64,000 nucleotides of DNA from an uncultured virus (IMG/VR IMGVR_UViG_3300035520_001855) (Duplodnaviria; Heunggongvirae; Uroviricota; Caudoviricetes), in IMG/VR virus record IMGVR_UViG_3300035520_001855; one strand, given 5' to 3'. Shown one piece after another: positions 1 through 39,559 of the stretch. A program made the translations under genes and the position numbers. Position 1 is the first letter of the stretch. Each line of letters starts with the position of its first letter. The notes beneath the pieces are model-generated. The model worked only from the letters and a program-made list of their open reading frames with translations. It had not been told where the DNA came from and did not search any database.

Positions 1-927
1 TTAATTAAACATATTAACTTTCCCATGTGAAGGCATTTTTACAACTTTAGATAAACTCAAGTCAGTATCATTGTTTGTATTTATACTATCTGTATAAATC
101 TGCACTTCACTAGTATGAAAATTTGTAAATATATTTTCTTTGTGTAGAACTACAATTAAATCATTTAATGTTTTTAACCCCAAATGATTATTTGATAAAA
201 TATCAACTATTTTGTCTGTATATTTCTCAAAAGTCTTATTGTTACATTTTTTACAATTATACCAATCTTTTTTAGATTTTAAATTGTTACAATTATTGAA
301 CCAACAAGGTCCTAACTTTTTATTTTGCACTTTTGCACCACCATTGCAATTTGATATTAATGACATCAACATACTGTAAAAATGTTCTATATTCGGACTT
401 ACTTTTTCATCTTTATCAGTAATTGTGTTATATAACTTTAATGCAATTAATGGATTTTTATTTATAGCTACGGTTCGTAAAACATTGTATTTTGCAAGTA
501 ATGACTTAGAATTAAAATCCACAGCACTACAACTAATAGACTCCTCTAAATATTTTTTATAGTACATTTCAATATGTTCACCAAATAAGAAAATCTGTTC
601 AACACAAGTATAATCAGCTATAAATACTCTTAACAGTTTTTTCTGTGTCTCTGAATTCCCATATAACCTCAAATTCTCAAAACTTAAATAAAAATTTCTT
701 GTAGCAGGACATGACACGTTGTCAATGGCTATGAATATATACTCATCATCTTTCAATACGTCAAATATATTTTTAAATTTTTTATAAACATTAGTATTAC
801 CATTTACGGATACCACACTACCATCAATATCAAGAATCTGTAAGAAAATTTTCCATAAAGTTACACCTATTAAATGTGTATTTTTATTTATTGATGTGCC
901 ATCTTCTGTTATTATATATAATCTCAC
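1..927 (-). CDS. TOPRIM-like putative nuclease (DUF4869-associated), copy 1
   Basis: N-terminal IITEDG, later IAIDNV, Cys cluster; GTG start overlaps upstream TGA; ends HGKVNMFN. Confidence 0.55.
   Translation of the reverse strand: MRLYIITEDGTSINKNTHLIGVTLWKIFLQILDIDGSVVSVNGNTNVYKKFKNIFDVLKDDEYIFIAIDNVSCPATRNFYLSFENLRLYGNSETQKKLLRVFIADYTCVEQIFLFGEHIEMYYKKYLEESISCSAVDFNSKSLLAKYNVLRTVAINKNPLIALKLYNTITDKDEKVSPNIEHFYSMLMSLISNCNGGAKVQNKKLGPCWFNNCNNLKSKKDWYNCKKCNNKTFEKYTDKIVDILSNNHLGLKTLNDLIVVLHKENIFTNFHTSEVQIYTDSINTNNDTDLSLSKVVKMPSHGKVNMFN
13..83. repeat. 71-bp direct repeat, copy 1 (partner 1872-1942)
   Basis: 53 bp identical (13-65 vs 1872-1924), then 2 mismatches; encodes the shared C-terminal tail. 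Confidence 0.95.
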
Positions 928-1373
928 ACAATCAACTCCCCATGAAAATCCGGATTAAAATATACTAAACGTATTGTATCATCCTTCATATATAATGTTG
1001 CACAATTCTGTAATGGTATCTGCAACTGTGGATAACAAGCTCTATTTACAATAATATATTGATTTGAATTAATATTTATCTGTTCTAACAACTGTGGCGT
1101 ATTTTGCACTACCTCATCAAAATTATCAATAATTATTAAACTATTTGTATATATACTAATATCAAGTTTATCATATAAACTTTGATTCTTCACAAACACT
1201 ATCGGTTTGCTTTCATTGCCTACTTTACCATTATCTACAGCTATTTTCAATTCATTTATCATGAAAGTTTTCCCAATTGCTGAATCCCCATCTATGCAGT
1301 TAATGTCGCCATTTAATTTTAAATCGAACTTTATTTTGCCGCTTTGAAACTTAATATTATCATATAAGATCAT
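924..1373 (-). CDS. Small P-loop ATPase (ABC-like Walker A/B half), copy 1
   Basis: GDSAIGKT Walker A, IIIDN Walker B-like; start moved to the ATG behind GGAG. Confidence 0.7.
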   Translation of the reverse strand: MILYDNIKFQSGKIKFDLKLNGDINCIDGDSAIGKTFMINELKIAVDNGKVGNESKPIVFVKNQSLYDKLDISIYTNSLIIIDNFDEVVQNTPQLLEQININSNQYIIVNRACYPQLQIPLQNCATLYMKDDTIRLVYFNPDFHGELIV

Positions 1374-1839
1374 TATAAACACGCTCCACTTCGATTTTTA
1401 GATTCTTATTAAAATCTTTTAATTCTATAATTTGGTTGTTAAAATATAAATTAAAATTTTCTAGTTTCTCGCACATATCTATAGACACTAAATGAGTTAT
1501 GAAGCATTCGATCTTAGATTGAATGAAATCTTTAAAAAAAACTTCTAAAACATTTTTACCACAATTATCTAATCGTATTGCAATTTCAGAGTTATTTAAA
1601 TGGTTCGCAACTATTAGGGTCTTTGTCCCTGCAGATAAATTTTCTACTGAAGTTACACCAAAATGTGTTTGAATTGTTCCTAAATTTATATCAATTATAT
1701 GTGCACCATCAATAGTTTGTATATACATAACATCTTTTTCATTCAACCCATAATCACGGAAAATTTCATGAAATTTAGAATCTATCGAAAAAATTAGTGG
1801 TCTAGTCAATAAATTTTTATTGGTGTAGATATTTAGCAT
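1360..1839 (-). CDS. DUF4869-family protein, copy 1
   Basis: ID..NLSAGTKTL..CGKN pattern. Confidence 0.7.
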   Translation of the reverse strand: MLNIYTNKNLLTRPLIFSIDSKFHEIFRDYGLNEKDVMYIQTIDGAHIIDINLGTIQTHFGVTSVENLSAGTKTLIVANHLNNSEIAIRLDNCGKNVLEVFFKDFIQSKIECFITHLVSIDMCEKLENFNLYFNNQIIELKDFNKNLKIEVERVYNDLI

Positions 1840-1862
1840 ATAATCACATCCTTTCTTAATTA

Positions 1863-2615
1863 TTAAAATAGATTAACTTTCCCATGTGAAGGCATTTTTA
1901 CAACTTTAGATAAACTCAAGTCAGCATCATTATTTGTATTTACAATATTAGACATTTTAATCAATTTTAATATCTCATTATGTAATACTGACTCCTTATA
2001 TAATTCATTGTATTTGTGTATAAATGTCAAATTATCATTTTCTCTATTGCAATTTTTACAGTCGTATATGTGCCCCTTCTGTTGATAATCACTACATGAA
2101 GATTTCCAGCAGTCACCATACACACCTTTACTTATCTTTATTGCTTTATTACCCTCAGTTATCTGTGACACTACGCAAGAGATAAAATGCTCAATATTTG
2201 TACAATTCATGTTTGGTATTGTACCTGCAATTTTAATAGCCTCGTCTACATTTATATAAAACAATTCTTGTACTCGATATAGTTGTTTTTGTTTCTCATC
2301 TAATAATCGCACATAACTCTTTAAATTTTTATATGATATAAAAATTTCTTCAAAGCAAATATAATCTGAGAAAACTATATTATTGTTTTGTTGATAATTA
2401 AGATATAAATCCCTAACCTCTTTATTATCAACATTATCAACAGCTAGATAAAAAAGATCTGTATCATTATACATATCTTCTAGTATACTATCAACATTTT
2501 TAATACCACTACAACATACAATATTTAACTCAATATTTAAATATTTCTGAATCATCTGCCAAAACTGATGCTCTGCTTTACCCTCATTGCATTCTGAGAT
2601 TAAATGTATCACCAC
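1863..2615 (-). CDS. TOPRIM-like putative nuclease, copy 2
   Basis: LISEC, CSGIKN, LAVDNVD, CFEEIF; paralog of 1-927; ends HGKVNLF. Confidence 0.55.
   Translation of the reverse strand: MVIHLISECNEGKAEHQFWQMIQKYLNIELNIVCCSGIKNVDSILEDMYNDTDLFYLAVDNVDNKEVRDLYLNYQQNNNIVFSDYICFEEIFISYKNLKSYVRLLDEKQKQLYRVQELFYINVDEAIKIAGTIPNMNCTNIEHFISCVVSQITEGNKAIKISKGVYGDCWKSSCSDYQQKGHIYDCKNCNRENDNLTFIHKYNELYKESVLHNEILKLIKMSNIVNTNNDADLSLSKVVKMPSHGKVNLF
1872..1942. repeat. 71-bp direct repeat, copy 2
   Basis: Matches 13-83. Confidence 0.95.
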
Positions 2616-3049
2616 GCCACCCTCTTTCGAATTGCTTGTGCATAGTATGATAACTCATATTGTTTCTTTTCTGCATTGAATTGCATTCTACAACAATTAA
2701 ATAAAGGCACATTTATCTTTGTATAAGCTCTAGATATCAGCACATACTGATTATCATTATCATTATTTATTAAGTCTATTATCTCAGGTTTTTGTAATGA
2801 TATTGAATCAAAATTATCAATAAAAATTACATTATTTTTAAAACACCTTAAATCCATACCTTTTGAATATAATATGATGGGCTTGTCGTATATTGGTGAC
2901 AACGGATCTTCCAAACCATACTTTAACATCTGCATCAATAGTGTTTTTCCTGACCCAGAATCTCCACTTATTAAAGTAACTGTTCCATTGATATCCAAAT
3001 CAAATAAATATTTTGGTGATCTTACTATCAATCTTTTCAGAATTATCAT
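2609..3049 (-). CDS. Small P-loop ATPase, copy 2
   Basis: GDSGSGKT, IFIDNFD, NQYVLISR; paralog of 924-1373. Confidence 0.7.
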   Translation of the reverse strand: MIILKRLIVRSPKYLFDLDINGTVTLISGDSGSGKTLLMQMLKYGLEDPLSPIYDKPIILYSKGMDLRCFKNNVIFIDNFDSISLQKPEIIDLINNDNDNQYVLISRAYTKINVPLFNCCRMQFNAEKKQYELSYYAQAIRKRVAW

Positions 3050-3521
3050 TTCGTTCACCCCCTAATGCATCTTTCATCGTAGTGCAAAATTTCTGTAGTG
3101 TACAACAAGTAGAGCCATTCATGAGTACTTTAACGTCCTTGATTTCTTTTCTAAATATAGAATAACTCAAAAATACTTTTAAATTTGTCTCTGCAAATTT
3201 ATCAAATATTTCATACAATGCATTCTCTCCGCAGTTTGTGACATCTAAACAGATGTCTAAATTCTCTTTAACTATATGATTTGCTAAAATTAATGTTTTA
3301 CATCCGGAAGATATATTATATATAGAAGTTAAGCCTTCAAATGTTTCAACTAAACCTGTTGATAAACTCTTAATTTCGGCATTGTCTATAACTTCCAAAA
3401 AATATTTATCCAGTTCATCTAATTCTCTAGTATTAATATGATTAAAAAAGAAAGCATCCACAAATGTTATAAATTTACATTTTTTTGATAACTTGTTTAA
3501 GTCATAAAACACACTAATCAT
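3000..3521 (-). CDS. DUF4869-family protein, copy 2
   Basis: IDNA..NISSGCKTL..CGEN. Confidence 0.7.
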   Translation of the reverse strand: MISVFYDLNKLSKKCKFITFVDAFFFNHINTRELDELDKYFLEVIDNAEIKSLSTGLVETFEGLTSIYNISSGCKTLILANHIVKENLDICLDVTNCGENALYEIFDKFAETNLKVFLSYSIFRKEIKDVKVLMNGSTCCTLQKFCTTMKDALGGERNDNSEKIDSKITKIFI

Positions 3522-3544
3522 AGTAACACCCCTTTTCCTAATTA

Positions 3545-4459
3545 TTAGAATAGATTTGTGGTGGTCACAGTTTCTTTTAAGTGTTCACGAGCTCGCATGA
3601 GTTGTTTTCCTAAAAGATTTTGTCCTTCCCATTTTTCTTGATGAAATCTGTTTTCATCTCTCATTGACAAACCGATGCCCCATATTCGATCCCTTACAGC
3701 ACACTCTGCTATAACTTGATTCTCAGTTGATAACAACTTAGACTCTAAATCTTTATTCTGGCTAAACTTACAAAGTAACCCTTCAAAAACGATATTTTCC
3801 CTATTGGTTATCCAAACTCCTTCTACGAAGTTTGATACTTGTCTTCCTAAAGATTTGATTCTAGCAACATCGTCTGTCTGCAAGATTTCTTTAGCTATGA
3901 CTTCATCATTAAAGAGCGTTGCTTTTTGGTGCATCATGTACTGCTCCATTGACGAGTACTTAACACCATTGTAATAGAATTCAGATAAATACCAATTGCT
4001 TAAATAGCCATTCTCTTCATCTGGATTATGAAAGAATACCATCGAATATGTTTCATCATATATTTTATATCTGTCTACAGCTAAGTTTATATCCATATCA
4101 TGTAATACATTATATTTTGAAATTAAATCCTTAGGCTGAATCAATGTCACCAGTTTTGAACTCGGAATACCCGTTTTCCACTGCTTTAATGAGTAGAATT
4201 CTCCTATCCATGTTGCCATATCATCATTCTGGAATGTTTCGCTATTCTTTAACATTTGAGTATTTTGCAATGCCTCTAAAATATCAGTAGCTGACATAGT
4301 ACAATAAATAGCATAGCCCTTATCAATGAAATTTCTAATTGCACTTTTTAAATATGAACTTATAAAAAATGCTAAATCATAATCTCTTTCTACGGCTAAT
4401 TTAAAAAGTTCACCTTGTGTTTCAGTAACTTCATCTAGATATGCTTCTGGACATCTCAT
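3545..4459 (-). CDS. Antitoxin-like N-terminal domain fused to NADAR (YbiA) domain
   Basis: GYLSNWY..SMEQYMMHQKA..IKSLGR..DRIWGIG..GQNLLGKQLM; ATGA-coupled to upstream gene; ends TTTNLF. Confidence 0.85.
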   Translation of the reverse strand: MRCPEAYLDEVTETQGELFKLAVERDYDLAFFISSYLKSAIRNFIDKGYAIYCTMSATDILEALQNTQMLKNSETFQNDDMATWIGEFYSLKQWKTGIPSSKLVTLIQPKDLISKYNVLHDMDINLAVDRYKIYDETYSMVFFHNPDEENGYLSNWYLSEFYYNGVKYSSMEQYMMHQKATLFNDEVIAKEILQTDDVARIKSLGRQVSNFVEGVWITNRENIVFEGLLCKFSQNKDLESKLLSTENQVIAECAVRDRIWGIGLSMRDENRFHQEKWEGQNLLGKQLMRAREHLKETVTTTNLF

Positions 4460-5142
4460 AATGTAAAATCCTCCCTAATAACATAGCTAAATCCCTTCGA
4501 TAATGTATTTCTGTCAGATTCCATTAAAACCTTCATTGCCTCTCTAGCCTCATCATCTCTTTTATTATACTTAATAGCATAATCACCTGTGACAGCCTCA
4601 GGCTCACCAATTTCATATATTTGTTTAAAGGCTTTCTCTGTTTTTAGACATATTTGATTTTCTAAACCGCCTAAATGAAATAGTTCACTTATCAAAGTAT
4701 AATCTATATTATCCCTAACAAAGTTTTTTGCTATAGAGAAGTAAGATGAATCTGCTCTCCACCCATATATGATGTCATACTTGCTGATGTCTAACCTAAA
4801 TTTAGATATGAACTCAGGTGCAAATCTCTTATATCTTATTGAGTTGTCTGCAGGTCTATGTGCCATTAGCTCGGCTATCCAGTTTAATGGTGACACATTA
4901 TTGAAATTGAATATAGCTAAATTACTAAGATCCAATTCATATGTGTGCAGATATCCTGAACTGTTACCTGTGCAAACGGACCATTCTTTTGCTAGCTCCT
5001 TATTTTGAGTTAGATAAAATCCTCTGCCATAGTCATGCTTATCCTCACCTTTTCCATATGTTGGAGTTACATTTTCATTTGGTGATCCATGATATACTAT
5101 AATCTTTTTATTGACATTTAAATTATCTATTTGATCTTGCAT
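4456..5142 (-). CDS. DUF3990-family protein (ADP-ribosyltransferase-like fold)
   Basis: YHGS..DYGRGFYLT..AKEW..YDIIYGWRAD..QICLKT. Confidence 0.8.
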   Translation of the reverse strand: MQDQIDNLNVNKKIIVYHGSPNENVTPTYGKGEDKHDYGRGFYLTQNKELAKEWSVCTGNSSGYLHTYELDLSNLAIFNFNNVSPLNWIAELMAHRPADNSIRYKRFAPEFISKFRLDISKYDIIYGWRADSSYFSIAKNFVRDNIDYTLISELFHLGGLENQICLKTEKAFKQIYEIGEPEAVTGDYAIKYNKRDDEAREAMKVLMESDRNTLSKGFSYVIREDFTL

Positions 5143-5149
5143 ATTAAAT

Positions 5150-5199
5150 AATCACCACCTTTAATTAAAACTGAATTTTCTATTGTTAGAATAAATTTG
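5150..5199 (-). repeat. Cassette junction/leader repeat (also 7308-7359 and 8723-8765)
   Basis: Minus-strand consensus AATAAAACAAACCNAGTTTTAATTAAAGGTGGTGA, ending in the RBS. Confidence 0.75.
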
Positions 5200-6781
5200 T
5201 AGTACCTAAACTAGTGAAGGCAGTACCTTTATATACAAATTGCTTGTAAAAATCAACACTATTATAGATATTCTTCTTCAATAGACTTTCTAAATATTTT
5301 TGTGTTTTACATAAAAACTCTTCAACATTTATATACACTATCTTAAATTCTTCAGAAAATCTTGTCTTACCTCTATATAAAACAATCTTATTTATAATAT
5401 GTGTTCCTGTTGCATTTTCAATATTCTTACAAAATTCTTCATCATTTAGATGTTTGCATTGATCCTTGACACACTTATCTGATAATTTAACTTCAATTGC
5501 AACGGATGTTCTTGTACTCAGATTCTTTACAAGTACATCTATTTCCCTGTCACTTACATCTCTATATTTTGTCACTCTGATAGTATCTCCAGTAACATTA
5601 AACTCTTTTGCAGAGAGTGTTGTCTGATAAAATACAATATCTTCCAAGATGCCACCGCAAATATCTTCTTTTAATTTGTTTAATATCTGATCCTTTTCGA
5701 CATCATTATAAATTTGGAACTCCTCTGATTCGCAAAGAGCAACTGCTAAAGCTTCCGCCTGACAATACCTCATTCCTGGTTGAGTGAATATATATTCTTC
5801 TTCACTCTCTGTTTTTGGCAATTGCCATAACACATCCATATCTTTCAAATACTGGATAATTGTATTTACAGCTTTAGTATCTACAATATTGAAAGGATTT
5901 TCCTTAACACCTAAATAAATTCTTATTCTGTCACATACAGAATCGGTATCTATAATATCAGTATTAACACTCGTAGACTTTGTCATCAATTCTACAAGTG
6001 ATCCTAAATCATGTGATTTAAAATCACTATTTATCATTTTTACCAAAAATCTGCGATTATGATATTCAATAACTTTTGTTATGAATGAGGGTAAATCATT
6101 ATGATCAATGATATCACTTAATATCTGATTTGCATAATTTTCACCTCTGTTCCATTTCTGCAAACTATGTATAATATTGTAGACTATTGCCGTATTCGAA
6201 TACTCATTTAGGTTGTCTTTATTATAGATCAGCTCACCATCTGTTAATGTTCCTCCAAATTTAATATATGAGATAATATCCTTATTGAGTAAATATTTAT
6301 ACTCTTTAAATGAAATATAAGTTGTATGCAGCAGGTGAGCTCTATCATATAGTTCATTATTTTTGGCTAAGAAAAATCCTAAAGAATCTGTACCAGATAA
6401 GACAATTTTCTTCCCCTCTATTGCATATCTATCAGCCAAAAAACTACAAGTTCCAATAAAATTCCTAGCTTTTGTAATTTCATCAATAAAGATAAATTTG
6501 CAATTCCTGTGTACCTCTATGGCCTCTTTTACTTGCCACATTGTTTCTTCTCCATCACAGGATAGAAGTAATGTAGTGTCATAGTTTGAAATATTTTTTA
6601 TTTCTTGTAACATCATAATTGTCTTTCCTGTGCGGCGTAAACCATATAAACAACACACCTTTCTATCATTAGGTGTAGTAATATAACTGTCTAAATCTTT
6701 TAGAATAAATCTACTTTTAAAAATACTCTCAAGAGAGTTTTCAACATGTTCTTTTAATTCATCTCCAAAATAAATATACAT
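5186..6781 (-). CDS. AAA_14-type ATPase with C-terminal PD-(D/E)xK-like domain
   Basis: GLRRTGKT, IFIDEI, VLSGTDS, REIDVLV..AIEVK; start at ATG behind GAGAGG; ends GTTNLF. Confidence 0.8.
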   Translation of the reverse strand: MYIYFGDELKEHVENSLESIFKSRFILKDLDSYITTPNDRKVCCLYGLRRTGKTIMMLQEIKNISNYDTTLLLSCDGEETMWQVKEAIEVHRNCKFIFIDEITKARNFIGTCSFLADRYAIEGKKIVLSGTDSLGFFLAKNNELYDRAHLLHTTYISFKEYKYLLNKDIISYIKFGGTLTDGELIYNKDNLNEYSNTAIVYNIIHSLQKWNRGENYANQILSDIIDHNDLPSFITKVIEYHNRRFLVKMINSDFKSHDLGSLVELMTKSTSVNTDIIDTDSVCDRIRIYLGVKENPFNIVDTKAVNTIIQYLKDMDVLWQLPKTESEEEYIFTQPGMRYCQAEALAVALCESEEFQIYNDVEKDQILNKLKEDICGGILEDIVFYQTTLSAKEFNVTGDTIRVTKYRDVSDREIDVLVKNLSTRTSVAIEVKLSDKCVKDQCKHLNDEEFCKNIENATGTHIINKIVLYRGKTRFSEEFKIVYINVEEFLCKTQKYLESLLKKNIYNSVDFYKQFVYKGTAFTSLGTTNLF

Positions 6782-6815
6782 AAAATCAACCTCTCTCATT
6801 TGTATTACAATGAAT

Positions 6816-7304
6816 TTATTCTTTATTACTACCATTTCCCCAGTATTTTGATGCTGTTTTTAATACATCTTTAAAATATTCATCATAATTACTGAAATAT
6901 TCACCAGTACTGACATCTTGAATACTGACTTGCATATTTTCATAATTCTCCATAAATAAGTAGGAGCATAGGTACATTTCAATATCCTTTATTTGTGATA
7001 TTTGAAAAATATATTTAAGGCAATCATCACCGAATATTGCTGAACTGTATATAAATGGTTCATCACATTTCAGCATTAAAATCAAGCCCTTGCATCCACC
7101 TGACAATTTCTCTGGTGGAAATGTTCCCAAAAACTCACTCTTTAAAATATTATTAGTCACCACTTCTGTCTTATCAACTGTGTTGATAATATTAATCACT
7201 CTTTCATCTTCCAGCCATTCATTCTCGTATAGCACATTAAACACTGCATCACAACTTCTTATTAAGTTATCCTGACTATCTAATTTAGTGAATATTTTTA
7301 ACAC
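6816..7304 (-). CDS. DUF4869-family protein, copy 3
   Basis: VDKTEV..SEFLGTFPPEKLSGGCKGLIL..FGDDC. Confidence 0.8.
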   Translation of the reverse strand: MLKIFTKLDSQDNLIRSCDAVFNVLYENEWLEDERVINIINTVDKTEVVTNNILKSEFLGTFPPEKLSGGCKGLILMLKCDEPFIYSSAIFGDDCLKYIFQISQIKDIEMYLCSYLFMENYENMQVSIQDVSTGEYFSNYDEYFKDVLKTASKYWGNGSNKE

Positions 7305-7345
7305 TCACATCACCACCTCTAATTAAAACTGGGTTTGTTTTATTG

Positions 7346-8719
7346 TTAAAATAGATTTGATGTTAAGATGTCTATAGTAACTTCTTCAGCTTTATTTAAA
7401 TTAGCTATAAATTCTTCCATCATTAATAATGGTAATACTGTTATGTGATTGTCTATATCAGCATCAAAGTCTTTTGGTACTTCTCCTAAATCAGCTCTAA
7501 ATACTACAAGCTCATCAATTGTTTTATCCTTCAACAATCTTTTACCTGTTTTATAATCTGCCTTTCCTGATTTTATTTCAAAACCATATTTCTTTTTCAC
7601 ATTTTGTAACCCGTAGGAACAAAAATCAAGTTCACCACTTGTCTTTGACAATGTTATAAAAGTTGGATTGTACACACTACCAGACATTTCATCGGTTAAT
7701 ACTTTAAATGCATAAGTCTCAAATAACTTTCCTTTAAAATCATCTTGTTTTGAGGTTTCCTGTCTTATTGTATTTAAGAAGAATGTATCATTAAAATAAA
7801 GTCTTTTGCATGGGATTATATTTTCAAAATCACCATCAACGGCTACATCAGCGTAGTCTGCTATGCCAGTTTCTATCAACCATCTCATGTAAATTGCTGT
7901 ATCTTGTACTTTAAATTTCATCTTAGCATTTGATTGCAATTCAGTATTTAAACTAGATATAAATTTATCATCGTCTAATCCAGTCTTCTCTTTTAACAAT
8001 GTCCTCGCAACACATCTATATAATTCTCTTATAGATGTCTGAAATTTTATATCGTCTAGATATCTCACACTCTCTTTTAATATAAGATTTAATAAGTCCT
8101 GTGTGTCTTTACTAAATATCTTATTTTCATTCAGTAATGTTTCTGCTAGTCTTGGATAGCCACCCATTTTTATATAAACATAGAAACACTCTAATCTTGT
8201 TTTAAATTTTCCCTTGAATGCCCTTTCAAACTCACTAAATTTTAATGTTGTCAATCTTAATACTGTTAAATCTCCTACAGGTAGGAAGAACTCTTTATTT
8301 TTTGTTATCATCCCCAAAAAGCTTCCTGATACAATGTAGCGTACTTTATGCGTTCTTGCGACTCTTCTAATAGAGTTATAGATTGCTGGTGTCTCTTGTA
8401 TTTCATCAATAAATATGCAGTTATCATCAGAATTTTGAATATCTGTATAAGTTTTAAATACATATTCCTCTATCACAAGTTTCTTGTTATTAAGAATCTC
8501 TGTATCAACATAATTTGTTATACCATCCGGAGTGGTCACAATTACCCCTCCTGTTAATAAGTTAATTTCAATAAATCTATTGAATTCATTTTTACAAAAT
8601 TCCCTTATTAAACTTGTCTTTCCAACTTGTCTTGCTCCTTCTACTTGTAAAGCTTGTTGTTTGAAACTACGATTCTTCCAAAACAACATATCTTTATATA
8701 GATCTCTTTTGATGAACAT
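7346..8719 (-). CDS. AAA_14/DUF4143-type ATPase-nuclease
   Basis: GARQVGKT, IFIDEIQ, VSGS, GGYP, GELDF..FEIKSG; ends TSNLF. Confidence 0.85.
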   Translation of the reverse strand: MFIKRDLYKDMLFWKNRSFKQQALQVEGARQVGKTSLIREFCKNEFNRFIEINLLTGGVIVTTPDGITNYVDTEILNNKKLVIEEYVFKTYTDIQNSDDNCIFIDEIQETPAIYNSIRRVARTHKVRYIVSGSFLGMITKNKEFFLPVGDLTVLRLTTLKFSEFERAFKGKFKTRLECFYVYIKMGGYPRLAETLLNENKIFSKDTQDLLNLILKESVRYLDDIKFQTSIRELYRCVARTLLKEKTGLDDDKFISSLNTELQSNAKMKFKVQDTAIYMRWLIETGIADYADVAVDGDFENIIPCKRLYFNDTFFLNTIRQETSKQDDFKGKLFETYAFKVLTDEMSGSVYNPTFITLSKTSGELDFCSYGLQNVKKKYGFEIKSGKADYKTGKRLLKDKTIDELVVFRADLGEVPKDFDADIDNHITVLPLLMMEEFIANLNKAEEVTIDILTSNLF

Positions 8720-8757
8720 AGTAATCACCACCTTTAATCAAAAACTTGGTTTGTTTT

Positions 8758-8787
8758 ATTATAACACATATTTCACTAAAAAGTAAA
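8758..8787 (-). promoter_or_regulatory. Sigma-A-type promoter for the cargo operon running from 8719 toward position 1
   Basis: TTTACT-18 nt-TATAAT with extended TG. Confidence 0.55.
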
Positions 8788-8789
8788 CA

Positions 8790-9035
8790 CTATTTACTAA
8801 ATAAACTTGTTGATACACTTGGTTTATCTGTTGAATGTGATAAATGCATATATACAACTTTCTCTGGTATTAAATCATCATCTATTGTTTCAATTATGAT
8901 ATCATGCTTATCCAAATCAAAACTTAGAAGCACATTGTGAATTAATTCATCAAAAGCCACAAATGTATTTTTACCACTAAAATGTGTCAATATTGCTTTT
9001 GTATCAATTATCCTGAAACACCTATATTTTGTCAT
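8790..9035 (-). CDS. Hypothetical protein
   Basis: RBS GGGGGAAG; ends STSLFSK. Confidence 0.65.
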   Translation of the reverse strand: MTKYRCFRIIDTKAILTHFSGKNTFVAFDELIHNVLLSFDLDKHDIIIETIDDDLIPEKVVYMHLSHSTDKPSVSTSLFSK

Positions 9036-9073
9036 ACTGAATCACTTCCCCCTAAATTATTTATTTGACGTAC

Positions 9074-9109
9074 AATAAAAGACATTGACACTAGTCAATG
9101 TCTTTTATT
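9074..9109. terminator. Bidirectional intrinsic terminator
   Basis: Perfect 16-bp inverted repeat aataaaagacattgac/gtcaatgtcttttatt. Confidence 0.8.
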
Positions 9110-10089
9110 TAAAACTCTGAAGTCTTTATTACTTCACCATTATTTAGAATGCATAAATTCTCTTCAACTCTCTGTAAAATGAGATCAATACCTTTTATAC
9201 TAGTAACTTTAAACTTTTCATTTAAAAGATTTACTAACTCATTCCTTTGTTCTGCTGTTAACTGAAGATTCTGTGCAAATGTTATCAATGCATAATCCGC
9301 TACACCCCTGCTTATTGGATCTTGTTGCACAGAAAAACTGTCAATCAACAATGAAATGCTAGAGAAAGTATCCTTACCATAAGATGTAAATGATATTTGT
9401 TGTAACATTGAAAATACACTAATAGTGTTAAAATCTAAATTTAAATCACTTGCATATAAATCTCGAATATAATCATTACAATAGCTTATGAACAAATTGT
9501 TAATAGCTCGCATATCAACTAAGAATATATCTTGACACTTTACTGCTACTAAGTCTAATGGTAATTCAAGTAAACCTCTCTGAAAGATTGCTTTTACTGA
9601 ATATTTATTTTCATTGCTTAACTTTGCTAAAACTTGATCTGCGAAAATCGGTACAATTCTCCTGTTATCAATTTTCAATACATCATTAGTTCTTGCAACA
9701 CCACGTTTATTATCTTCATGGAAAGATATGATAATCTCCTCAAACTGTTTCATATCCACTTTAATATAAACAGAAATTCGGTAAAGATTGTCAATTACAC
9801 AGATAAAAGTATCTTTATGTTCTTGATCTTTTTTTCTTTCAATCATGTAAGGTTGAATGTTTGAAAGATATGATTTTACAAAATCCAACATATTTCTTCC
9901 ACAATAGTTAACATAATCAAAGAGGTGTTTATTTAAACCACTCCAATGCTGTGTATCATCTATTTTCAATCTGTCTAATTTTGCAAGTCTACGCAATTTT
10001 CTGCACACTGCTATCATAGATGTGTCAACACCAAACTGTTTAACTTGTTCGAATGTCAAGTCCTCTGATAAGCTTGAATTTAAATCCAT
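9109..10089 (-). CDS. Hypothetical protein
   Basis: Long ORF, GGAGG RBS before ATG 10089; ends KTSEF. Confidence 0.8.
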   Translation of the reverse strand: MDLNSSLSEDLTFEQVKQFGVDTSMIAVCRKLRRLAKLDRLKIDDTQHWSGLNKHLFDYVNYCGRNMLDFVKSYLSNIQPYMIERKKDQEHKDTFICVIDNLYRISVYIKVDMKQFEEIIISFHEDNKRGVARTNDVLKIDNRRIVPIFADQVLAKLSNENKYSVKAIFQRGLLELPLDLVAVKCQDIFLVDMRAINNLFISYCNDYIRDLYASDLNLDFNTISVFSMLQQISFTSYGKDTFSSISLLIDSFSVQQDPISRGVADYALITFAQNLQLTAEQRNELVNLLNEKFKVTSIKGIDLILQRVEENLCILNNGEVIKTSEF

Positions 10090-10149
10090 GTGTAACACCT
10101 CCTATGTCTTTAGTATACACTAAATTTAATATAAAGTAAAGATATAAGA

Positions 10150-11055
10150 TTACTTGCACACTTTCAGTTCATTACCATCATAGATATAAATATTATCAGA
10201 TAAATATTCTACTTCAGTTGTAGAAATGTTTTTATTAGTGACAGCACTATTAAACATTTGTAATGCTTTATATAATTTATTTAGATCACTACCAGTTCTT
10301 GAACCAACAATTAAAGTATCAGTATTTATTGGTACTATCAATACATCGCTATTAAACTTTCTATACAATCTCTTCAAAAATTCTGTGCATACCAAAGCTG
10401 AAGAACCATAGTAACCCACTCTACCTGTAACTAATACTGAATTAGCCATACCTGTCATAAAGTCAGGTTCTTTAAGTGTCAAGCCTAATAACTTTTCTGT
10501 ATTAATCATAGCATGCTTAAATAATTCTTCCTCTGTAATCCCTGCTACTTTTAAGAGTTCTTCTGTCACAACACCTGTCTGCATTGCATGGTTGCTGATA
10601 TCTTCATTTACAAAGATTCTGCAACCAACACACAAGTCTAAAACTCTAGTGTAAGGTATATTTTTTATCATAGCTTGATTTCTTGCAAAATTGCAAACAA
10701 ATAAGAATACATGCTTGAGTATATATTCTTTATCTCTTAAATCTACTCTCTCCACTTCGGCTGTCATAGTTAACGCTGCTTCTGCATACTTTCCTAAAAA
10801 ATAATTAACAAATTCTGGTATATCCTCCTCAGATGCACCTGACTCTGATGAAAAGACATCATATAAGAAATCTAAATAATACACTGGGATAACCTCATTG
10901 TCCTGACTGTCATGTTTTAATAACACACCTACTCTCTCTACATTACACTTATTTATCTTTTCTACTGCAACCTTAAACTCGGGAAAATGTTCTGCTACTA
11001 CCGAATTTAACTCTCTTATAAATAATTCACTAAATTTTTCAAATGTTACTGACAT
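10150..11055 (-). CDS. DUF5688-family protein
   Basis: KCNVERVGV..PVYYLD..GITEEELFKHAMINT..YGSSAL..LSDNIYIYD; strong RBS. Confidence 0.7.
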   Translation of the reverse strand: MSVTFEKFSELFIRELNSVVAEHFPEFKVAVEKINKCNVERVGVLLKHDSQDNEVIPVYYLDFLYDVFSSESGASEEDIPEFVNYFLGKYAEAALTMTAEVERVDLRDKEYILKHVFLFVCNFARNQAMIKNIPYTRVLDLCVGCRIFVNEDISNHAMQTGVVTEELLKVAGITEEELFKHAMINTEKLLGLTLKEPDFMTGMANSVLVTGRVGYYGSSALVCTEFLKRLYRKFNSDVLIVPINTDTLIVGSRTGSDLNKLYKALQMFNSAVTNKNISTTEVEYLSDNIYIYDGNELKVCK

Positions 11056-11089
11056 AATTTACCTCCTAATAAATATAATGATGTACAAT

Positions 11090-11880
11090 AAAAATGCCTG
11101 TTTAAATGCAGAGTGTAAAATGAACAACAAATTTATTTAAAACGAAGAAAACACATCTACAAAATAAACAGGCTAGTGAGTAGGGAAAGGGCACCCACTA
11201 GAAAGCACCTAAAACACTCAGATGTTTTCTAGTAGATATAATTACTCCTTACAGACACTCACAATAGGCAGAACATATCAAAAAACTTGGAGGTCATCTG
11301 AAAAAAACTTTATAAAAATAGATGTTGGTATGTACTGCCTTAAAGTAAATGCCTGACTAGTTGGGTGCTAGTCATAAAAAAATGAAAGGAGTTTTATGAT
11401 AGTGGCAGACTATCATTCCCAGTGCATAACACTGAAAAGAGCTTGATTTTAAAAATTAAACTCTTTTCAATGTTACCCATGAATCCTTGAGTTTCTATCT
11501 TGAGAAAGAAAATAAATGGGTGGGATTGGGACAAATTATTAATATGTCATATCAATCTCAAGATAGCACTCTTGGACCCGAATGAATTATTCACCCGGAA
11601 AAGAGTTTTTATCCAAATGGATGGTGGGTTAAGTTTATCCCACTAGCGAGAGTCTAATTATTGAGCAATTAGGCTCTCATACTGGGATAAAATTATAAAA
11701 TACAAAGATTGGCTTGTTTAAGGGGTTGCCAAACAAGCCAAACCAGCTTTCACATTTGGGGAAATATAAAAGCCAAATTTTAGCATCAGAATCATTGATT
11801 CCTTATCTTTGATTCACTTTTATATATGTAATTGAGTACAATGTGCTGAAGATACTATTTCGAGAATATTAAAGTGAAAA
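11090..11880. ncRNA. Candidate large structured non-coding RNA or hairpin array
   Basis: No ORF of 60 aa or more; at least 12 near-contiguous stems, e.g. 11096/11173, 11266/11340, 11354/11374, 11396/11416, 11427/11475, 11489/11571, 11648/11678, 11709/11741. Confidence 0.55.
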
Positions 11881-11894
11881 CTCAATAATTTGAC

Positions 11895-11951
11895 TAAATT
11901 AAAAAATAAGGAGCTATCACATATGTTGGATGCTCCTTATTTTTTAATTTA
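11895..11951. terminator. Strong bidirectional terminator-like hairpin
   Basis: taaattaaaaaataaggagc...gctccttattttttaattta. Confidence 0.75.
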
Positions 11952-12063
11952 TTAAGTGTAGTTTTTAAAAATGTGTACTTGATACCTGTGAAGATGAACT
12001 ACAAAATTGTTTAATATCTTTTAGTCTCTATTTAAATTGTATCAGACTCTTCTTATATAGCCA

Positions 12064-12314
12064 TTACACAATCGTTACACAATTTTGTTATTGGAATGTA
12101 AAATTTTATACAAAAACACATCTTTGTATAATTTATACCAAAGTCTTTTGTTAAAAGGGTTTGAAGGCTTTTATAAGAGAAAATTGAACTCTATGAAACT
12201 GACATGCAAATTACAATTCCTAGTTTCATTTTTTACTTATACCTATTCAGAAACCCTTTGTTTACTTGGTTTCTGCCTTTCTTTATATTTTTACTACACA
12301 ACTTACTACACAAT
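12064..12314. other. attP-like site with two pairs of arm-type repeats
   Basis: TACACAA repeats at 12064, 12075, 12294 and 12306, directly downstream of the integrase. Confidence 0.6.
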
Positions 12315-13442
12315 TTTTAAAGTGCTTGCAACCTTTTCTATTTCGCTAGCTTTAGCATCATCAGTAACATGAACATATAAATTCATTGTAGTTTCGATAT
12401 TAGAATGACCTAAAAGTACCTGTAATGTTTTAGGTCGCATACCACCTTCGATGCATCTTGTTGCAAATGTGTGTCGTAGAACATGAGTTGAGAATCTTTT
12501 TATTCCAGCTTTGTCACATAATTGAAATAGCTTAGTGTCGTAAGTCGATGTTTTTAATGGAGCTCCTTTTCTATTTAAGAACACAAAGTCTGAAAAATTT
12601 ATATCAATTACAGGTAGAGATTCAATCTTTTCCTTTTGACTCTTTAAAAGCTCTACTGCCACTTCTGTTAGGTTTATATCACGAAAGCCTGTTTTACTTT
12701 TAGGATCTCCTATTCTCCATTTACCAGCACTATAACGGAATTCCATGGTTCTTCTCACATGTATTAATTTTCTATCAAAATCAACATCGGACCATTTCAA
12801 TCCCATTAATTCTCCTATTCTAAGTCCAGTTTGAAGAATCAAAGCATACGCATTATAGTTACTACATTTTTTTGCAACTTCTAAAAATTTTCTTTGTTCT
12901 TCAAGTGTAAGTGCTCTGACTGTTTTTGGTTCTTTTCCTATATTAGATTTTACAGACTTAGTTACTGGATTTTTATGTATAAGATCATTATCAACAGCAC
13001 TTGCAAACATACAACATAAAGCAATTCGTGTTTGTTCTATAGTAGAAGTTTTATAGTCATTTTTCATCTGATTTAAAACATTTTGACAATGCATAGGTTT
13101 TACTTCAGACAACAACATTCTTCCAATACAACCTTTTATATTCTTCTCGAATCTTTCAATGTAGTTTCTTCTTGTGTTTGATCGAATACTATTCCCTTTA
13201 ATGTTATCAATCCAATACTCAAACCAAGCAGTAACTGTCATATCTCCAGATGCATTAATACCTCCATGTTCATCAGCAAATCTTGCATCTGCAAGCCAGT
13301 TTCGACATTCCTGTAATTTAGTAAAATACTTTTGTACATTCTTGCCAGTTTGCTTACTCACAAATCGTGCTGTGTATAATCCATCCGATTTTCGTTGACT
13401 TATTCCAACTCCAAGCTCTTTACCCTTTAGGTCTTTACCCAC
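12306..13442 (-). CDS. int: Tyrosine recombinase (Tn916/phage-type integrase)
   Basis: TGLRIGEL, PKSKTGFR, HVLRHTFAT, LLGHSNIETTMNLYVH; N-terminal arm-binding domain. Confidence 0.95.
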   Translation of the reverse strand: MGKDLKGKELGVGISQRKSDGLYTARFVSKQTGKNVQKYFTKLQECRNWLADARFADEHGGINASGDMTVTAWFEYWIDNIKGNSIRSNTRRNYIERFEKNIKGCIGRMLLSEVKPMHCQNVLNQMKNDYKTSTIEQTRIALCCMFASAVDNDLIHKNPVTKSVKSNIGKEPKTVRALTLEEQRKFLEVAKKCSNYNAYALILQTGLRIGELMGLKWSDVDFDRKLIHVRRTMEFRYSAGKWRIGDPKSKTGFRDINLTEVAVELLKSQKEKIESLPVIDINFSDFVFLNRKGAPLKTSTYDTKLFQLCDKAGIKRFSTHVLRHTFATRCIEGGMRPKTLQVLLGHSNIETTMNLYVHVTDDAKASEIEKVASTLKIV

Positions 13443-13477
13443 CTAAATCAACTCCCTTCTGTCAATTCTTAACAAAA

Positions 13478-13527
13478 AAGAGTCTGATACAATTTAATAT
13501 TGTATCACACTCTCTTATGTTTTGCAA
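13478..13527 (-). promoter_or_regulatory. Integrase promoter embedded in a palindrome/terminator-like hairpin
   Basis: TTGCAA-17 nt-TACAAT with extended TG; hairpin followed by a T run on the minus strand. Confidence 0.6.
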
Positions 13528-13560
13528 CACTGAAATCATGTCGAATCTCTAAATAAAGAT

Positions 13561-13944
13561 TCAATCAATCTCACAAGTTTTAGATATGAATTCCTCAAAT
13601 TCTTTCCTTTTTATAAGTTTTTTAATTCCAACATATAAGACAAAAGGACAGTTAGGTTTTTTCAGCAATTCGCTTAACCTATTCACTCCTATATTGGAAT
13701 AGGCTGCAGCTTCACTAATTGTCAGATTTAACTTTAAATGTATAGGCACTTCTATATGATTTTTGTCATCTACTTCTTGCGTTGTTTCACAAATAGAGAT
13801 ATCTTCTCTCTGAGGTTCTTGTGTTGTTTCATAAATAAAAACATCATCTTTTTTAGGTTCCTGTGTTGTTTCATAAATAAAAACATCTTCTCTTTTGAGT
13901 TTCTGTGTTTTATTTTTATTCTTTTTAGTCTTATCCTTACTCAT
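13561..13944 (-). CDS. xis: Excisionase with three N-terminal 14-aa repeats
   Basis: VPIHLKLNLTISEAAAYSNIGVNRL..CPFVLYVGIKKLIKRKEFEEF; directly upstream of int. Confidence 0.8.
   Translation of the reverse strand: MSKDKTKKNKNKTQKLKREDVFIYETTQEPKKDDVFIYETTQEPQREDISICETTQEVDDKNHIEVPIHLKLNLTISEAAAYSNIGVNRLSELLKKPNCPFVLYVGIKKLIKRKEFEEFISKTCEID
13771..13896 (-). repeat. 3 x 42-bp in-frame tandem repeat
   Basis: KREDVFIYETTQEP / KKDDVFIYETTQEP / QREDISICETTQEV. Confidence 0.9.
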
Positions 13945-17878: not shown

Positions 17879-17904
17879 CTACATTTAGATATGTATATAA
17901 TGAT

Positions 17905-17994
17905 AGTGTTTGGCAGGAGTCGAACCTGCTCTTTAATTAAATCTCAATATCTTCTTTGCAATTGAGATATGTGCTACCGTTACACTACAAACAC
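17905..17994 (-). ncRNA. tRNA-like element 1 with extended non-canonical anticodon arm
   Basis: Acceptor GTGTTTG/CAAACAC; D arm GTGT-AACGGTA-GCAC; T arm GCAGG-TTCGACT-CCTGC; 8-bp stem with 12-nt loop in place of the anticodon arm. Confidence 0.65.
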
Positions 17995-18009
17995 TTTGAC
18001 GTGATAAAG

Positions 18010-21425: not shown

Positions 21426-21881
21426 TTAAGTGTCCATTTTGTTATATATTGTTTCAACAATATAATTAAGTCCTGTCACCCACCATTCACAATTTGCTGG
21501 TACAATAATGTTTCCACTATAATCATAAAAGTGTACAATTGGCAATCCCTCGTATTTTGGTTCAAGCAAGTAGATATTGTGTTTAATTTTTTCTATGCAT
21601 GCTTGTAATATTTTGGTATGAAATTCAGTTTCGTCTATCCTAAATTTACCAAATTGCTGTTGTAACTTTTGTCCCCTTTCTTTCGCCATATATCCATAAT
21701 AATACTTAAGTTCTTCTTTTTCTGGTATATCAGGCAAACCTAAATAGTAATAGTATGCTTCTACTGACTGGAAAACACCTTCAGGTGTTGCTATTGGACA
21801 ATGATAAAAATTAGATAGCATTCTACCAACTTTCAAGGTACTTTTTGAATAAGCATTTATATAGTCAATTCCTTCTATCAT
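21426..21881 (-). CDS. Phage-type NADAR-like protein
   Basis: INAYSKS..GRMLSNFYHCPI..GVFQSVEAYY. Confidence 0.6.
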   Translation of the reverse strand: MIEGIDYINAYSKSTLKVGRMLSNFYHCPIATPEGVFQSVEAYYYYLGLPDIPEKEELKYYYGYMAKERGQKLQQQFGKFRIDETEFHTKILQACIEKIKHNIYLLEPKYEGLPIVHFYDYSGNIIVPANCEWWVTGLNYIVETIYNKMDT

Positions 21882-27366: not shown

Positions 27367-27484
27367 ATTAAAACCTCCCTATTACTTAACATGATTTACA
27401 CTAATGTATACTTGGTTCACTTGTATAAATAAAAGATAAAAAACTTCTAATAATACTAACTTACTCTAGCTATTAATACATAAA

Positions 27485-27562
27485 TATTAAATTTAGGGAT
27501 TTAAACAAGATGTAAATCCCTAAATTTAATATGGGAAGTTAACATAATTATGTTAACTTCCC
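27485..27562. terminator. Two adjacent inverted repeats (terminator and/or operator)
   Basis: atattaaatttagggattta../..taaatccctaaatttaatat, then the perfect palindrome gggaagttaacataattatgttaacttccc. Confidence 0.6.
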
Positions 27563-27580
27563 AGTTACTAATTAAAAATA

Positions 27581-35182: not shown

Positions 35183-35268
35183 CGTATTCAACAGGATTTG
35201 CACCTAGTCCCCCCTTAATTGGTACATCTCATATCAAATAAGGTGTGCTACTTCTGCACCATGAATAC
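35183..35268 (-). ncRNA. tRNA-like element 2 with extended non-canonical anticodon arm
   Basis: Acceptor GTATTCA/TGAATAC; D arm GTGC-AGAAGTA-GCAC; CCTTA/TAAGG stem enclosing 21 nt; T arm AGG-TGCAAAT-CCT. Confidence 0.55.
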
Positions 35269-39372: not shown

Positions 39373-39391
39373 TAAATTTCATGAGAGGACT

Positions 39392-39550
39392 ATCATCAGC
39401 GGTTATTCTTCGGGATGCCGCTGATGACGCTCTCTAAACACCAATCAAAACATAACTTTTGGAGTTGTAGATTAAGAGACACAAAATGATTTTATGTCCC
39501 TTAATGTGCAACTTCAAATATATACTGGGTATCATATAATACCCAGTATA
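39392..39550. terminator. Three hairpins between convergent genes
   Basis: Stems at 39392-39426, 39459-39518 and 39519-39550. Confidence 0.55.
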
Positions 39551-39559
39551 TTAATTATA

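What the first reader, a model, noticed from the sequence alone, without database searches (positions are those of the whole stretch)
11090..11880. About 800 nt of back-to-back hairpins: candidate large structured RNA or multi-guide antisense array
Seen: an ORF-free stretch in a gene-dense element with at least 12 stems and a long-range pair tcccagt (11417) / actggga (11681). Many stem mismatches are C-A or G-T, so wobble-compatible, slightly favouring the minus strand. Loops and linkers on the plus strand look like translation-initiation regions (TTGGAGGT 11287, ATGAAAGGAGTTTTATG 11382, GGGTGGG, AGGGG, AAAATGAAC), so a minus-strand RNA would expose C/U-rich anti-SD-like loops. Known: large ornate RNAs (GOLLD, ROOL) occur in Firmicutes phages, and C-rich loops mediate RNAIII-type targeting. 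I cannot assign it to a family. A GGA-rich CsrA sponge on the plus strand or an ssDNA origin are alternatives.
Basis: partly seen in the sequence, partly recalled or inferred. Interest (0 to 1): 0.72.

Follow-up and report, generated by a model that had tools for sequence, protein, structure and literature searches.

The report
Orphan folded RNA at mobile-element end
A roughly 690-base gene-free stretch beside the integration site of a giant gut-bacterial mobile element folds very strongly and matches no catalogued RNA; it most likely forms a long folded RNA at the head of the element's cargo genes, but neither relatives nor expression could be shown.

Summary
The structure is real. Window 11096-11780 is the most strongly folding stretch of the 144-kb record (minus strand z -21.9; seven consecutive sub-domains z -4.0 to -8.1). 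It has no Rfam match and encodes no plausible protein. The minus strand is moderately favoured.

New context: it lies just inside the attachment site of a Tn916-like Xis/integrase that targets the start of ychF (17-nt core 12213-12229). It sits behind a terminator hairpin (11895-11951) and in front of 14 co-oriented cargo ORFs led by DUF5688.

The long-range pair is outcompeted (probability 0.004), SD-like and GGA motifs are not enriched, C-rich loops are marginal, and no element start region is targeted beyond controls.

No homolog was found in any reachable collection, so covariation is untested. The one RNA run was uninformative.

Best reading (0.4): a minus-strand structured leader RNA that gates the cargo operon and may accumulate as a free RNA. 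Rivals: stand-alone ornate RNA (0.25), RNAIII-like sRNA (0.12), ssDNA signal (0.1), packed small elements (0.13). The scan noted a sequence-unrelated structured RNA at a Ruminococcus ICE end before (unchecked).

The parts
11096..11780 (-). Folded core, about 690 nt, candidate structured RNA (seven consecutive sub-domains)
   Evidence: z -4.0 to -8.1 per sub-domain on minus; helix list; no Rfam match
11745..11775 (-). Hairpin with CCCC loop, 13-14 bp, 3-4 G.U; forms on minus only
   Evidence: p 0.93-0.96
11709..11741 (-). Hairpin with CAACCCC loop followed by a U-rich tail (terminator-like)
11692..11720 (-). Best sigma-70-like match on minus (TAAACA-17-TATAAT, 10 of 12); not more than chance
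   Evidence: 9 sites found vs 7.5+-2.3 in shuffles
11630..11695 (-). Long hairpin, 24-27 bp, CUCAA loop; 3' arm carries CUAGUGGG
11483..11622 (-). Two small hairpins plus a 21-bp helix enclosing a 20-nt unpaired C-rich segment (11529-11510)
11423..11479 (-). Long hairpin, 25-28 bp, 3-4 G.U
11396..11416 (-). Perfect 8-bp hairpin, CUGCC loop
11244..11392 (-). Multibranch domain closed by an anti-SD-like segment (11392-11384) paired with an internal SD-like segment (11252-11244); holds the CACCCAA-loop hairpin and a 21-bp helix
   Evidence: closing helix p 0.89-0.91
11192..11238 (-). 20-bp hairpin with 5 G.U; second CUAGUGGG; its 3' end (11197-11191) is complementary to loop 11368-11362 (possible pseudoknot or switch, inferred)
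11088..11173 (-). 3' hairpin with GC-rich base and U-rich tail (11095-11088): candidate terminator or attenuator 20 nt before the DUF5688 SD
   Evidence: p 0.97; no alternative fold found, opening the base costs 14 kcal/mol
11785..11892 (-). Weakly folded spacer; inferred promoter zone, no convincing sigma-70 promoter
   Evidence: z -0.9
11895..11951 (.). 20-bp perfect inverted repeat with A and T tracts on both sides: terminator-like hairpin between att and the folded core
   Evidence: z about -9 on both strands
11955..12212 (.). Inferred far arm of attP, with TACACAA/CTACAC repeats like those of the near arm; not confirmed by homology
   Evidence: such repeats absent from 3 of 3 other element ends checked
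12213..12229 (-). att core, identical to the first 17 nt of a ychF-type GTPase gene in G004 (reads MKLGIV)
   Evidence: bracketing direct repeats 9-16 kb apart in G299, G401, G006
12230..12320 (.). Near att arm, conserved in ychF-integrated elements of Lachnospiraceae
   Evidence: 82% identity to G004; 58 of 401 genomes match 12200-12700
12306..13442 (-). Tyrosine integrase
   Evidence: PF00589 E 4.5e-35
13561..13944 (-). Tn916-type excisionase
   Evidence: PF09035 E 1.3e-25
10150..11068 (-). DUF5688 gene (10150-11055) with SD at 11068-11062; first of 14 co-oriented cargo ORFs running to the record's edge
   Evidence: PF18941 E 2.1e-30; ORF map

Best explanation
The stretch encodes a minus-strand structured RNA of about 690 nt that heads the element's cargo operon. 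Shown: fold, position, att core, flanking hairpins. Inferred from here on: the hairpin at 11895-11951 stops transcripts arriving across the att site (from xis-int when excised, from the host ychF promoter when integrated). A promoter must therefore lie in 11056-11894, most likely in the weakly folded spacer or at 11720-11692, so most of the folded region is 5' leader of the DUF5688-led run. The last hairpin with its U-rich tail lets most transcripts stop, releasing a stable folded RNA. Read-through into the cargo genes is gated by a factor that binds or remodels the leader (a protein, the element's own RNA polymerase, or an antisense RNA). C-rich loops pair with the RNA's own G-rich segments as pseudoknots or switches rather than with outside mRNAs.
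For: Fold z -21.9, strongest of 962 windows. G.U bias 18:4 and 7 of 7 sub-domains better on the sense strand of the flanking genes. Strong hairpin upstream. 14 closely spaced minus-strand ORFs follow, with no sigma-70-like site between the last hairpin and the SD. 3' hairpin with U tail. Internal partners for C-rich loops, e.g. 11368-11362 with 11197-11191 and 11526-11520 with 11643-11637 (no control run). Precedent: a 456-nt attenuating leader heads the pLS20 conjugation operon (PMC13401043, passages).
Against: No homolog, so no covariation. No promoter above chance. No antiterminator fold: blocking the 3' hairpin base costs 14 kcal/mol and frees no alternative pairing, unlike the near-equal energies of the pLS20 switch. 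The 3' hairpin is long and was not called by the terminator scan. Strand bias is not significant in two of four tests, and G.T bias would also fit ssDNA. The plus strand also folds (z -10) and has a TATAAT at 11074-11079 and the terminator at its far end, so a plus-strand RNA is possible.
Confidence: 0.4

Rival explanations
1. A stand-alone large ornate RNA (works like ROOL, GOLLD or the L. salivarius megaplasmid RNA) with its own promoter and terminator, folding into a pseudoknotted body with a structural or protein-sponge role and no control over the cargo genes.
For: Size (about 690 nt), 19 helices, multibranch domains and possible loop-helix pseudoknots. Mobile-element location. [quoted passage not shown] A 520-nt megaplasmid RNA is described in PMC5643018 (abstract). 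A tRNA-like gene lies 6 kb away.
Against: No Rfam hit. The fold is mostly a string of local hairpins with no GNRA/UNCG loop among 14 (motif classes recalled). No 5'-3' closing helix within the core. Orphan status, whereas the known ornate RNAs are families.
Confidence: 0.25
2. A cluster of smaller independent elements (two to four sRNAs, antitoxin-type RNAs, terminators and remnants) packed at the element's end, as often happens beside att sites.
For: Internal terminator-like hairpin at 11741-11709 with a promoter-like site right behind it. Repeated motifs CUAGUGGG and CAGGCAUUU, each twice. In the distantly related element of G002, a similarly hairpin-dense 900-nt gap (z -12.6/-8.2) holds an SD-led 51-aa hydrophobic ORF and terminator-like hairpins.
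Against: No toxin-like ORF here and no relative of the G002 peptide in this record. The two gaps do not align above shuffles. Structure is continuous over seven sub-domains with one preferred strand.
Confidence: 0.13
3. An RNAIII/RsaE-type trans-acting RNA whose unpaired C-rich loops block ribosome-binding sites of several element or host mRNAs.
For: Unpaired C-rich segments exist, and loop C content is about 2 sd above shuffles. Unpaired UCCC motifs bind SD sequences in S. aureus RNAIII and RsaE (PMC2790875, passages). Best single pairing: segment 11302-11280 with the start of ORF 21426-21881, -20.7 vs -18.4+-1.6 kcal/mol.
Against: 1 of 13 segments beat all 15 controls, as expected by chance. 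The best anti-SD segment is paired inside the RNA. SD-like motifs are not enriched. Host pattern hits 12 vs 9 and 1 vs 0. Short seed pairing to host mRNAs was not testable, as the host genome is unknown.
Confidence: 0.12
4. A DNA-level signal that folds when the strand is single-stranded during transfer or replication (single-strand origin or ssDNA promoter).
For: Folds as DNA too (z -8.95 minus, -6.70 plus). ICEBs1 and Tn916 use an sso (PMC5812530, passages). ssoA forms a large structure primed by RNA polymerase (PMC5703833, passages). One TAGCGA (recalled CS-6 motif) on plus, p 0.05.
Against: 690 nt is about four times ssoA (about 160 nt). TAGCGA lies on the less favoured strand within a stem. 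No -35/-10 pair along one long stem (read). The RNA fold separates from shuffles far more than the DNA fold. No relaxase was looked for.
Confidence: 0.1

Closest known systems
cATT zipper attenuator, 456-nt leader of the pLS20 conjugation operon (PMC13401043; passages seen)
   Same: Long gene-free leader with several stem-loops and a terminator-like hairpin just before the SD of the first gene of a long operon, on a Firmicute mobile element.
   Different: Here the whole 690 nt is folded (in pLS20 only the 3' half), no antiterminator fold was found, and the downstream genes are cargo (DUF5688, AAA ATPases, DUF3990, NADAR), not conAn and conjugation genes.
ROOL and GOLLD RNAs (PMC12286853; passages seen); L. 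salivarius megaplasmid lncRNA (PMC5643018; abstract seen)
   Same: Size range, high helix density, mobile-element location, tRNA-like gene in the neighbourhood.
   Different: No match to the Rfam models; pseudoknots, abundance and oligomers not shown; no family of relatives.
S. aureus RNAIII and RsaE (PMC2790875; passages seen)
   Same: Multi-hairpin RNA with unpaired C-rich segments in a low-GC Gram-positive setting.
   Different: C-rich loops only marginally enriched, no target found beyond controls, best anti-SD segment paired internally, no Rfam match.
Single-strand origins of ICEBs1, Tn916 and rolling-circle plasmids (PMC5812530, PMC5703833; passages seen)
   Same: Strand-biased imperfect hairpins in a gene-free stretch of an integrative element.
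   Different: Several times longer, many separate hairpins, bracketed by terminator-like hairpins.
Tn916-type Xis/Int with attP
   Same: PF09035 Xis plus tyrosine integrase followed by att arms and a core identical to a host gene start.
   Different: Targets the 5' end of ychF. The same module drives 9-16-kb elements in other genomes, whose far ends lack this folded region.

Membership tests
ROOL / GOLLD / OLE and other Rfam 15 families | Match to the family covariance model | tested here: not met
   Only a tRNA in the whole window at gathering score; 24 matches at E<=10 in 11056-12310, all far below gathering
ROOL / GOLLD (works-like) | Covariation-supported multi-pseudoknot structure | not testable with these tools
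   No homolog found; candidate loop-helix pairings listed without control
ROOL / GOLLD (works-like) | Very high abundance; homo-oligomeric assembly | not testable with these tools
   Only assembled contigs of one RNA run were available
Zipper-type or classical transcription attenuator | Leader position upstream of the first gene of a long operon | tested here: met
   14 co-oriented ORFs follow; start site itself not mapped
Zipper-type or classical transcription attenuator | Intrinsic terminator just before the first SD | tested here: inconclusive
   Hairpin 11173-11096 plus U-rich tail, not called by the scan
Zipper-type or classical transcription attenuator | Alternative antiterminator fold of similar energy | tested here: not met
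   14 kcal/mol cost, no alternative pairing in the constrained fold
RNAIII/RsaE-type C-rich sRNA | Unpaired C-rich motifs | tested here: inconclusive
   Present; about 2 sd above shuffles by two measures, not enriched by a third
RNAIII/RsaE-type C-rich sRNA | Specific pairing to target start regions | tested here: not met
   Element: 1 of 13 segments beat all 15 controls. Host: two long patterns at control level; short seeds untested
CsrB/RsmZ-type sponge (plus strand) | Many GGA motifs in loops (recalled) | tested here: not met
   10 GGA vs 12.6 expected; 3 of 10 fully unpaired
Type I toxin-antitoxin locus | SD-led small hydrophobic ORF | tested here: not met
   None among frames of 20 aa or more; the one SD-ATG on plus (11394) opens a 16-codon polar peptide
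Single-strand origin | Strand-specific DNA fold | tested here: inconclusive
   z -8.95 vs -6.70, energies equal
Single-strand origin | Primes second-strand synthesis | not testable with these tools
   Needs a plasmid assay
attP of a ychF-targeting tyrosine integrase (neighbouring feature) | Core identical to host target and repeated at both ends of integrated relatives | tested here: met
   direct repeats in G299, G401, G006

The most novel reading that the evidence does not exclude
A previously undescribed class of large (about 700 nt) bacterial RNA, knotted together by repeated GUGGG / C-rich loop pairings and encoded as the first transcript of a giant ychF-integrating element that carries its own RNA polymerase. 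It would serve either as an RNA-only assembly or as the switch that couples the element's polymerase or excision state to its cargo operon.
Probability: 0.2. Interest if true: 0.8.

Novelty: new member of a known kind. Interest (0 to 1): 0.45.

Why it matters
Large structured bacterial RNAs are few and mostly of unknown function, so an unrelated one on a giant integrative element of gut Lachnospiraceae would add a new scaffold for structure work. If it is a leader, it would be an unusually long, fully folded control element at a defined place (first thing inside the att site), giving a direct handle on how such giant elements switch on their cargo. The att analysis also shows that this element, read earlier as a megaplasmid, carries a module for integration at ychF. 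The claim rests on one sequence, so it stays a candidate until relatives or transcripts are found.

Tried and rejected
HOMOLOG SEARCHES, all negative.
- blastn against phages (3 records, 36-38 nt) and plasmids (7 records, 23-61 nt) gave chance matches only.
- DNA search: 0 of 5 genomes and 3 of 401 Lachnospiraceae genomes. The three matches are 29-36 nt and were rejected as short.
- Pattern scans: viral 41 stretches, none extending; viral 0; metagenome 0.
- Single-sequence covariance models: R1 0 of 2 other genomes, 0 of 43, and one E 0.75 match in 36 loci; R2 and R3 0 of 141 each and 0 of 2.
- One R2 hit (L260:14150-14276, 27.3 bits) was rejected: a host hairpin between convergent housekeeping genes, aligned with a 51-position deletion.
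- No paralog in the own record.

ROUTES TO RELATED ELEMENTS. ORF 9109-10098 led to 59 loci with no RNA match; only L012 proved to belong to a related element. The core protein 59577-60977 has 70 relatives, but only 1 of 401 and 0 of 50 genomes carry one, and viral and metagenome scans found none. DUF5688 has no close relative. An RNA-polymerase search of G002 hit only the host enzyme.

G002 HAIRPIN GAP. It shares a 13-mer with the window, but alignment scores are below the shuffle mean in 4 of 4 comparisons; rejected as a homolog.

OTHER ychF ELEMENTS. 17 stretches from 16 genomes were examined. A second core was found in G299, G401 and G006 (plus doubtful 3-mismatch sites in G172 and G006). 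None has a comparable folded run or sequence match.

EXPRESSION. One gut metatranscriptome holds the element as low-depth contigs: pieces at 11063-11213 and 11419-11569 (depth about 4) and in neighbouring genes (depth 2-3.6). These cannot show strand, level or ends and may include DNA. No conclusion drawn.

REJECTED READINGS. Long-range pair 11417/11681, CsrA sponge, type I toxin gene, tRNA/tmRNA.

LITERATURE. 'DUF5688' gave 0 papers. Searches for ychF integration, ornate RNAs and gut structured RNAs (listings only) showed nothing describing this locus. Motif tables in supplements and RNAs outside Rfam were not checked.

Full report
SETTING. The window is the first 64 kb of a single 144,433-nt record, classed as provirus and 45% complete. 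Nearly all ORFs lie on the minus strand. A 2567-aa ORF matches rpoB/rpoC, in line with earlier unchecked notes of this scan (e1-8014696, e1-8014697) that call it a megaplasmid-like element with its own RNA polymerase. Relatives of nearby genes are from Lachnospiraceae. The finding lies in the gap 11056-12305, between a Tn916-type Xis and tyrosine integrase on one side and a DUF5688 gene on the other.

THE FOLD IS REAL. 11080-11950 folds at -269.1 kcal/mol on minus (z -21.9) and -243.8 on plus (z -10.0); 0 of 20 shuffles reach either. In a scan of 962 windows of 150 nt over the record, the best five-window excess is -78.3 here on minus; the best elsewhere is -57.3. Seven consecutive sub-domains from 11090 to 11785 each score z -4.0 to -8.1 on minus, each better than on plus. 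11785-11892 does not fold (z -0.9), and the att arms score -2.3 to +1.2. Nineteen helices have pair probability above 0.5. No frame encodes a plausible protein. Rfam finds no family at gathering score, and only weak generic hairpin matches at E<=10.

STRAND. With helices defined without regard to strand, G.U outnumbers A.C on minus 18:4 (p 0.004), 15:4 (p 0.019) and 7:4 (p 0.55) at three cut-offs, against 180:168 in 34 background blocks. A stricter Watson-Crick-anchored count gave 6:4. The minus strand, the sense strand of all flanking genes, is therefore moderately favoured. This does not separate RNA from ssDNA, which also folds (z -8.95 and -6.70).

The 11417/11681 pair has probability 0.004 (minus) and 0.04 (plus), because a local helix wins. 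On plus, SD-like motifs number 4 against 2.35 expected, and GGA 10 against 12.6. On minus, loop C content and unpaired CC are about 2 sd above 40 shuffles, but loops containing CC are not enriched. Against 134 element start regions, 1 of 13 exposed segments beat all 15 shuffled controls. Two long host patterns gave 12 vs 9 control hits and 1 vs 0 in 101 genomes. The best anti-SD segment is paired with an SD-like segment inside the RNA. Several C-rich loops have 6-7-bp partners in the RNA's own GUGGG segments (no control). Two motifs recur, CUAGUGGG and CAGGCAUUU, twice each, out of 3 and 2 copies in the record.

THE ATT SITE (new). 12213-12320 matches G004 at 82%. There a close integrase sits directly before a ychF-type GTPase gene whose first 17 nt equal window 12229-12213. 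58 of 401 Lachnospiraceae genomes match 12200-12700. In G299, G401 and G006 the core recurs 9.3, 10.0 and 16.3 kb away, each followed by an SD-like upstream sequence. In the window the core is flanked by neither ychF nor its upstream region, so this is the joined attP form. The far arm (11955-12212) is inferred from short repeats that were absent from 3 of 3 other ends. The folded region is thus the first feature inside the element's far end. It is not part of the integrase module: those three far ends show neither similarity nor a comparable fold.

MECHANISM. A 20-bp perfect inverted repeat with A/T tracts at 11895-11951 should stop transcription crossing the att site (inferred). Fourteen closely spaced ORFs follow the folded region, among them AAA ATPases, DUF4869, DUF3990 and NADAR. 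Their promoter must then lie in 11056-11894. The scan finds no site below the last hairpin, and its best minus-strand match is at 11720-11692, at chance level. By geometry most of the fold is 5' leader, ending in a hairpin with a U-rich tail 20 nt before the SD. I therefore favour a structured leader that mostly terminates and is read through under control (0.4). The pLS20 456-nt attenuator (PMC13401043, passages) is the nearest working model, but its defining alternative fold was not found here, so this is 'works like', not membership. Rivals are a stand-alone ornate RNA (0.25; PMC12286853 passages, PMC5643018 abstract), packed small elements (0.13), an RNAIII-type sRNA (0.12; PMC2790875 passages) and an ssDNA signal (0.1; PMC5812530 and PMC5703833 passages). 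A plus-strand RNA from the TATAAT at 11074 to the terminator is not excluded.

LIMITS. No homolog was found by BLAST, pattern scans or three single-sequence covariance models, and the one model hit was a host hairpin. The element itself is nearly an orphan in the reachable collections (1 of 401 genomes with a distant relative), so this says little about conservation. The relative in G002 has its own hairpin-dense gap, not alignable to this one. The single RNA run was uninformative. An earlier unchecked note (e1-3018696) reports a conserved structured RNA at a Ruminococcus ICE end. It has no sequence link to this one and is a lead only.

VERDICT. A real, unusually strong fold with a newly defined genomic anatomy and no known family. 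It is a credible candidate large structured RNA whose transcription, conservation and function are unproven. Interest 0.45.

Noticed in passing
window 17904-17995 (-): tRNA-like gene with an enlarged anticodon arm (32-nt insert; Rfam 45 bits; ARAGORN calls tRNA-Asn with anticodon att). Possibly degenerate or intron-bearing.
   Followed up: no
window 35183-35268 (-): Second tRNA-like gene with an odd anticodon arm, missed by ARAGORN and by the whole-window Rfam scan; 35.7 bits in a local scan.
   Followed up: partly
window 12032-12054 and 13475-13497: A 23-nt sequence in the far att arm recurs inverted (22 of 23) in the palindrome between xis and int: possible shared binding site.
   Followed up: no
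L012:12455-13360 (G002 contig C162, related element): Hairpin-dense 900-nt gap with an SD-led 51-aa hydrophobic ORF (13328-13173, minus) whose start folds back on its 3' end, like a type I toxin mRNA; no Pfam or Rfam match.
   Followed up: partly
window 12213-13944; G004, G299, G401, G006 and others: A widespread Lachnospiraceae integrase family targets the first 17 nt of ychF and rebuilds its start (58 of 401 genomes match the arm or integrase end); element sizes 9-16 kb where both ends were seen.
   Followed up: partly
window 1-11055: Cargo run with two AAA_14 ATPases, DUF4869, and adjacent DUF3990 and NADAR genes (possible ADP-ribosylation toxin-antitoxin or defence pair, recalled); many ORFs end in T-x-L-F-like tails (also noted in e1-8014683).
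   Followed up: no
window 39373-39559 and 27367-27580: Shorter hairpin-rich gaps, the next most structured places in the window.
   Followed up: no
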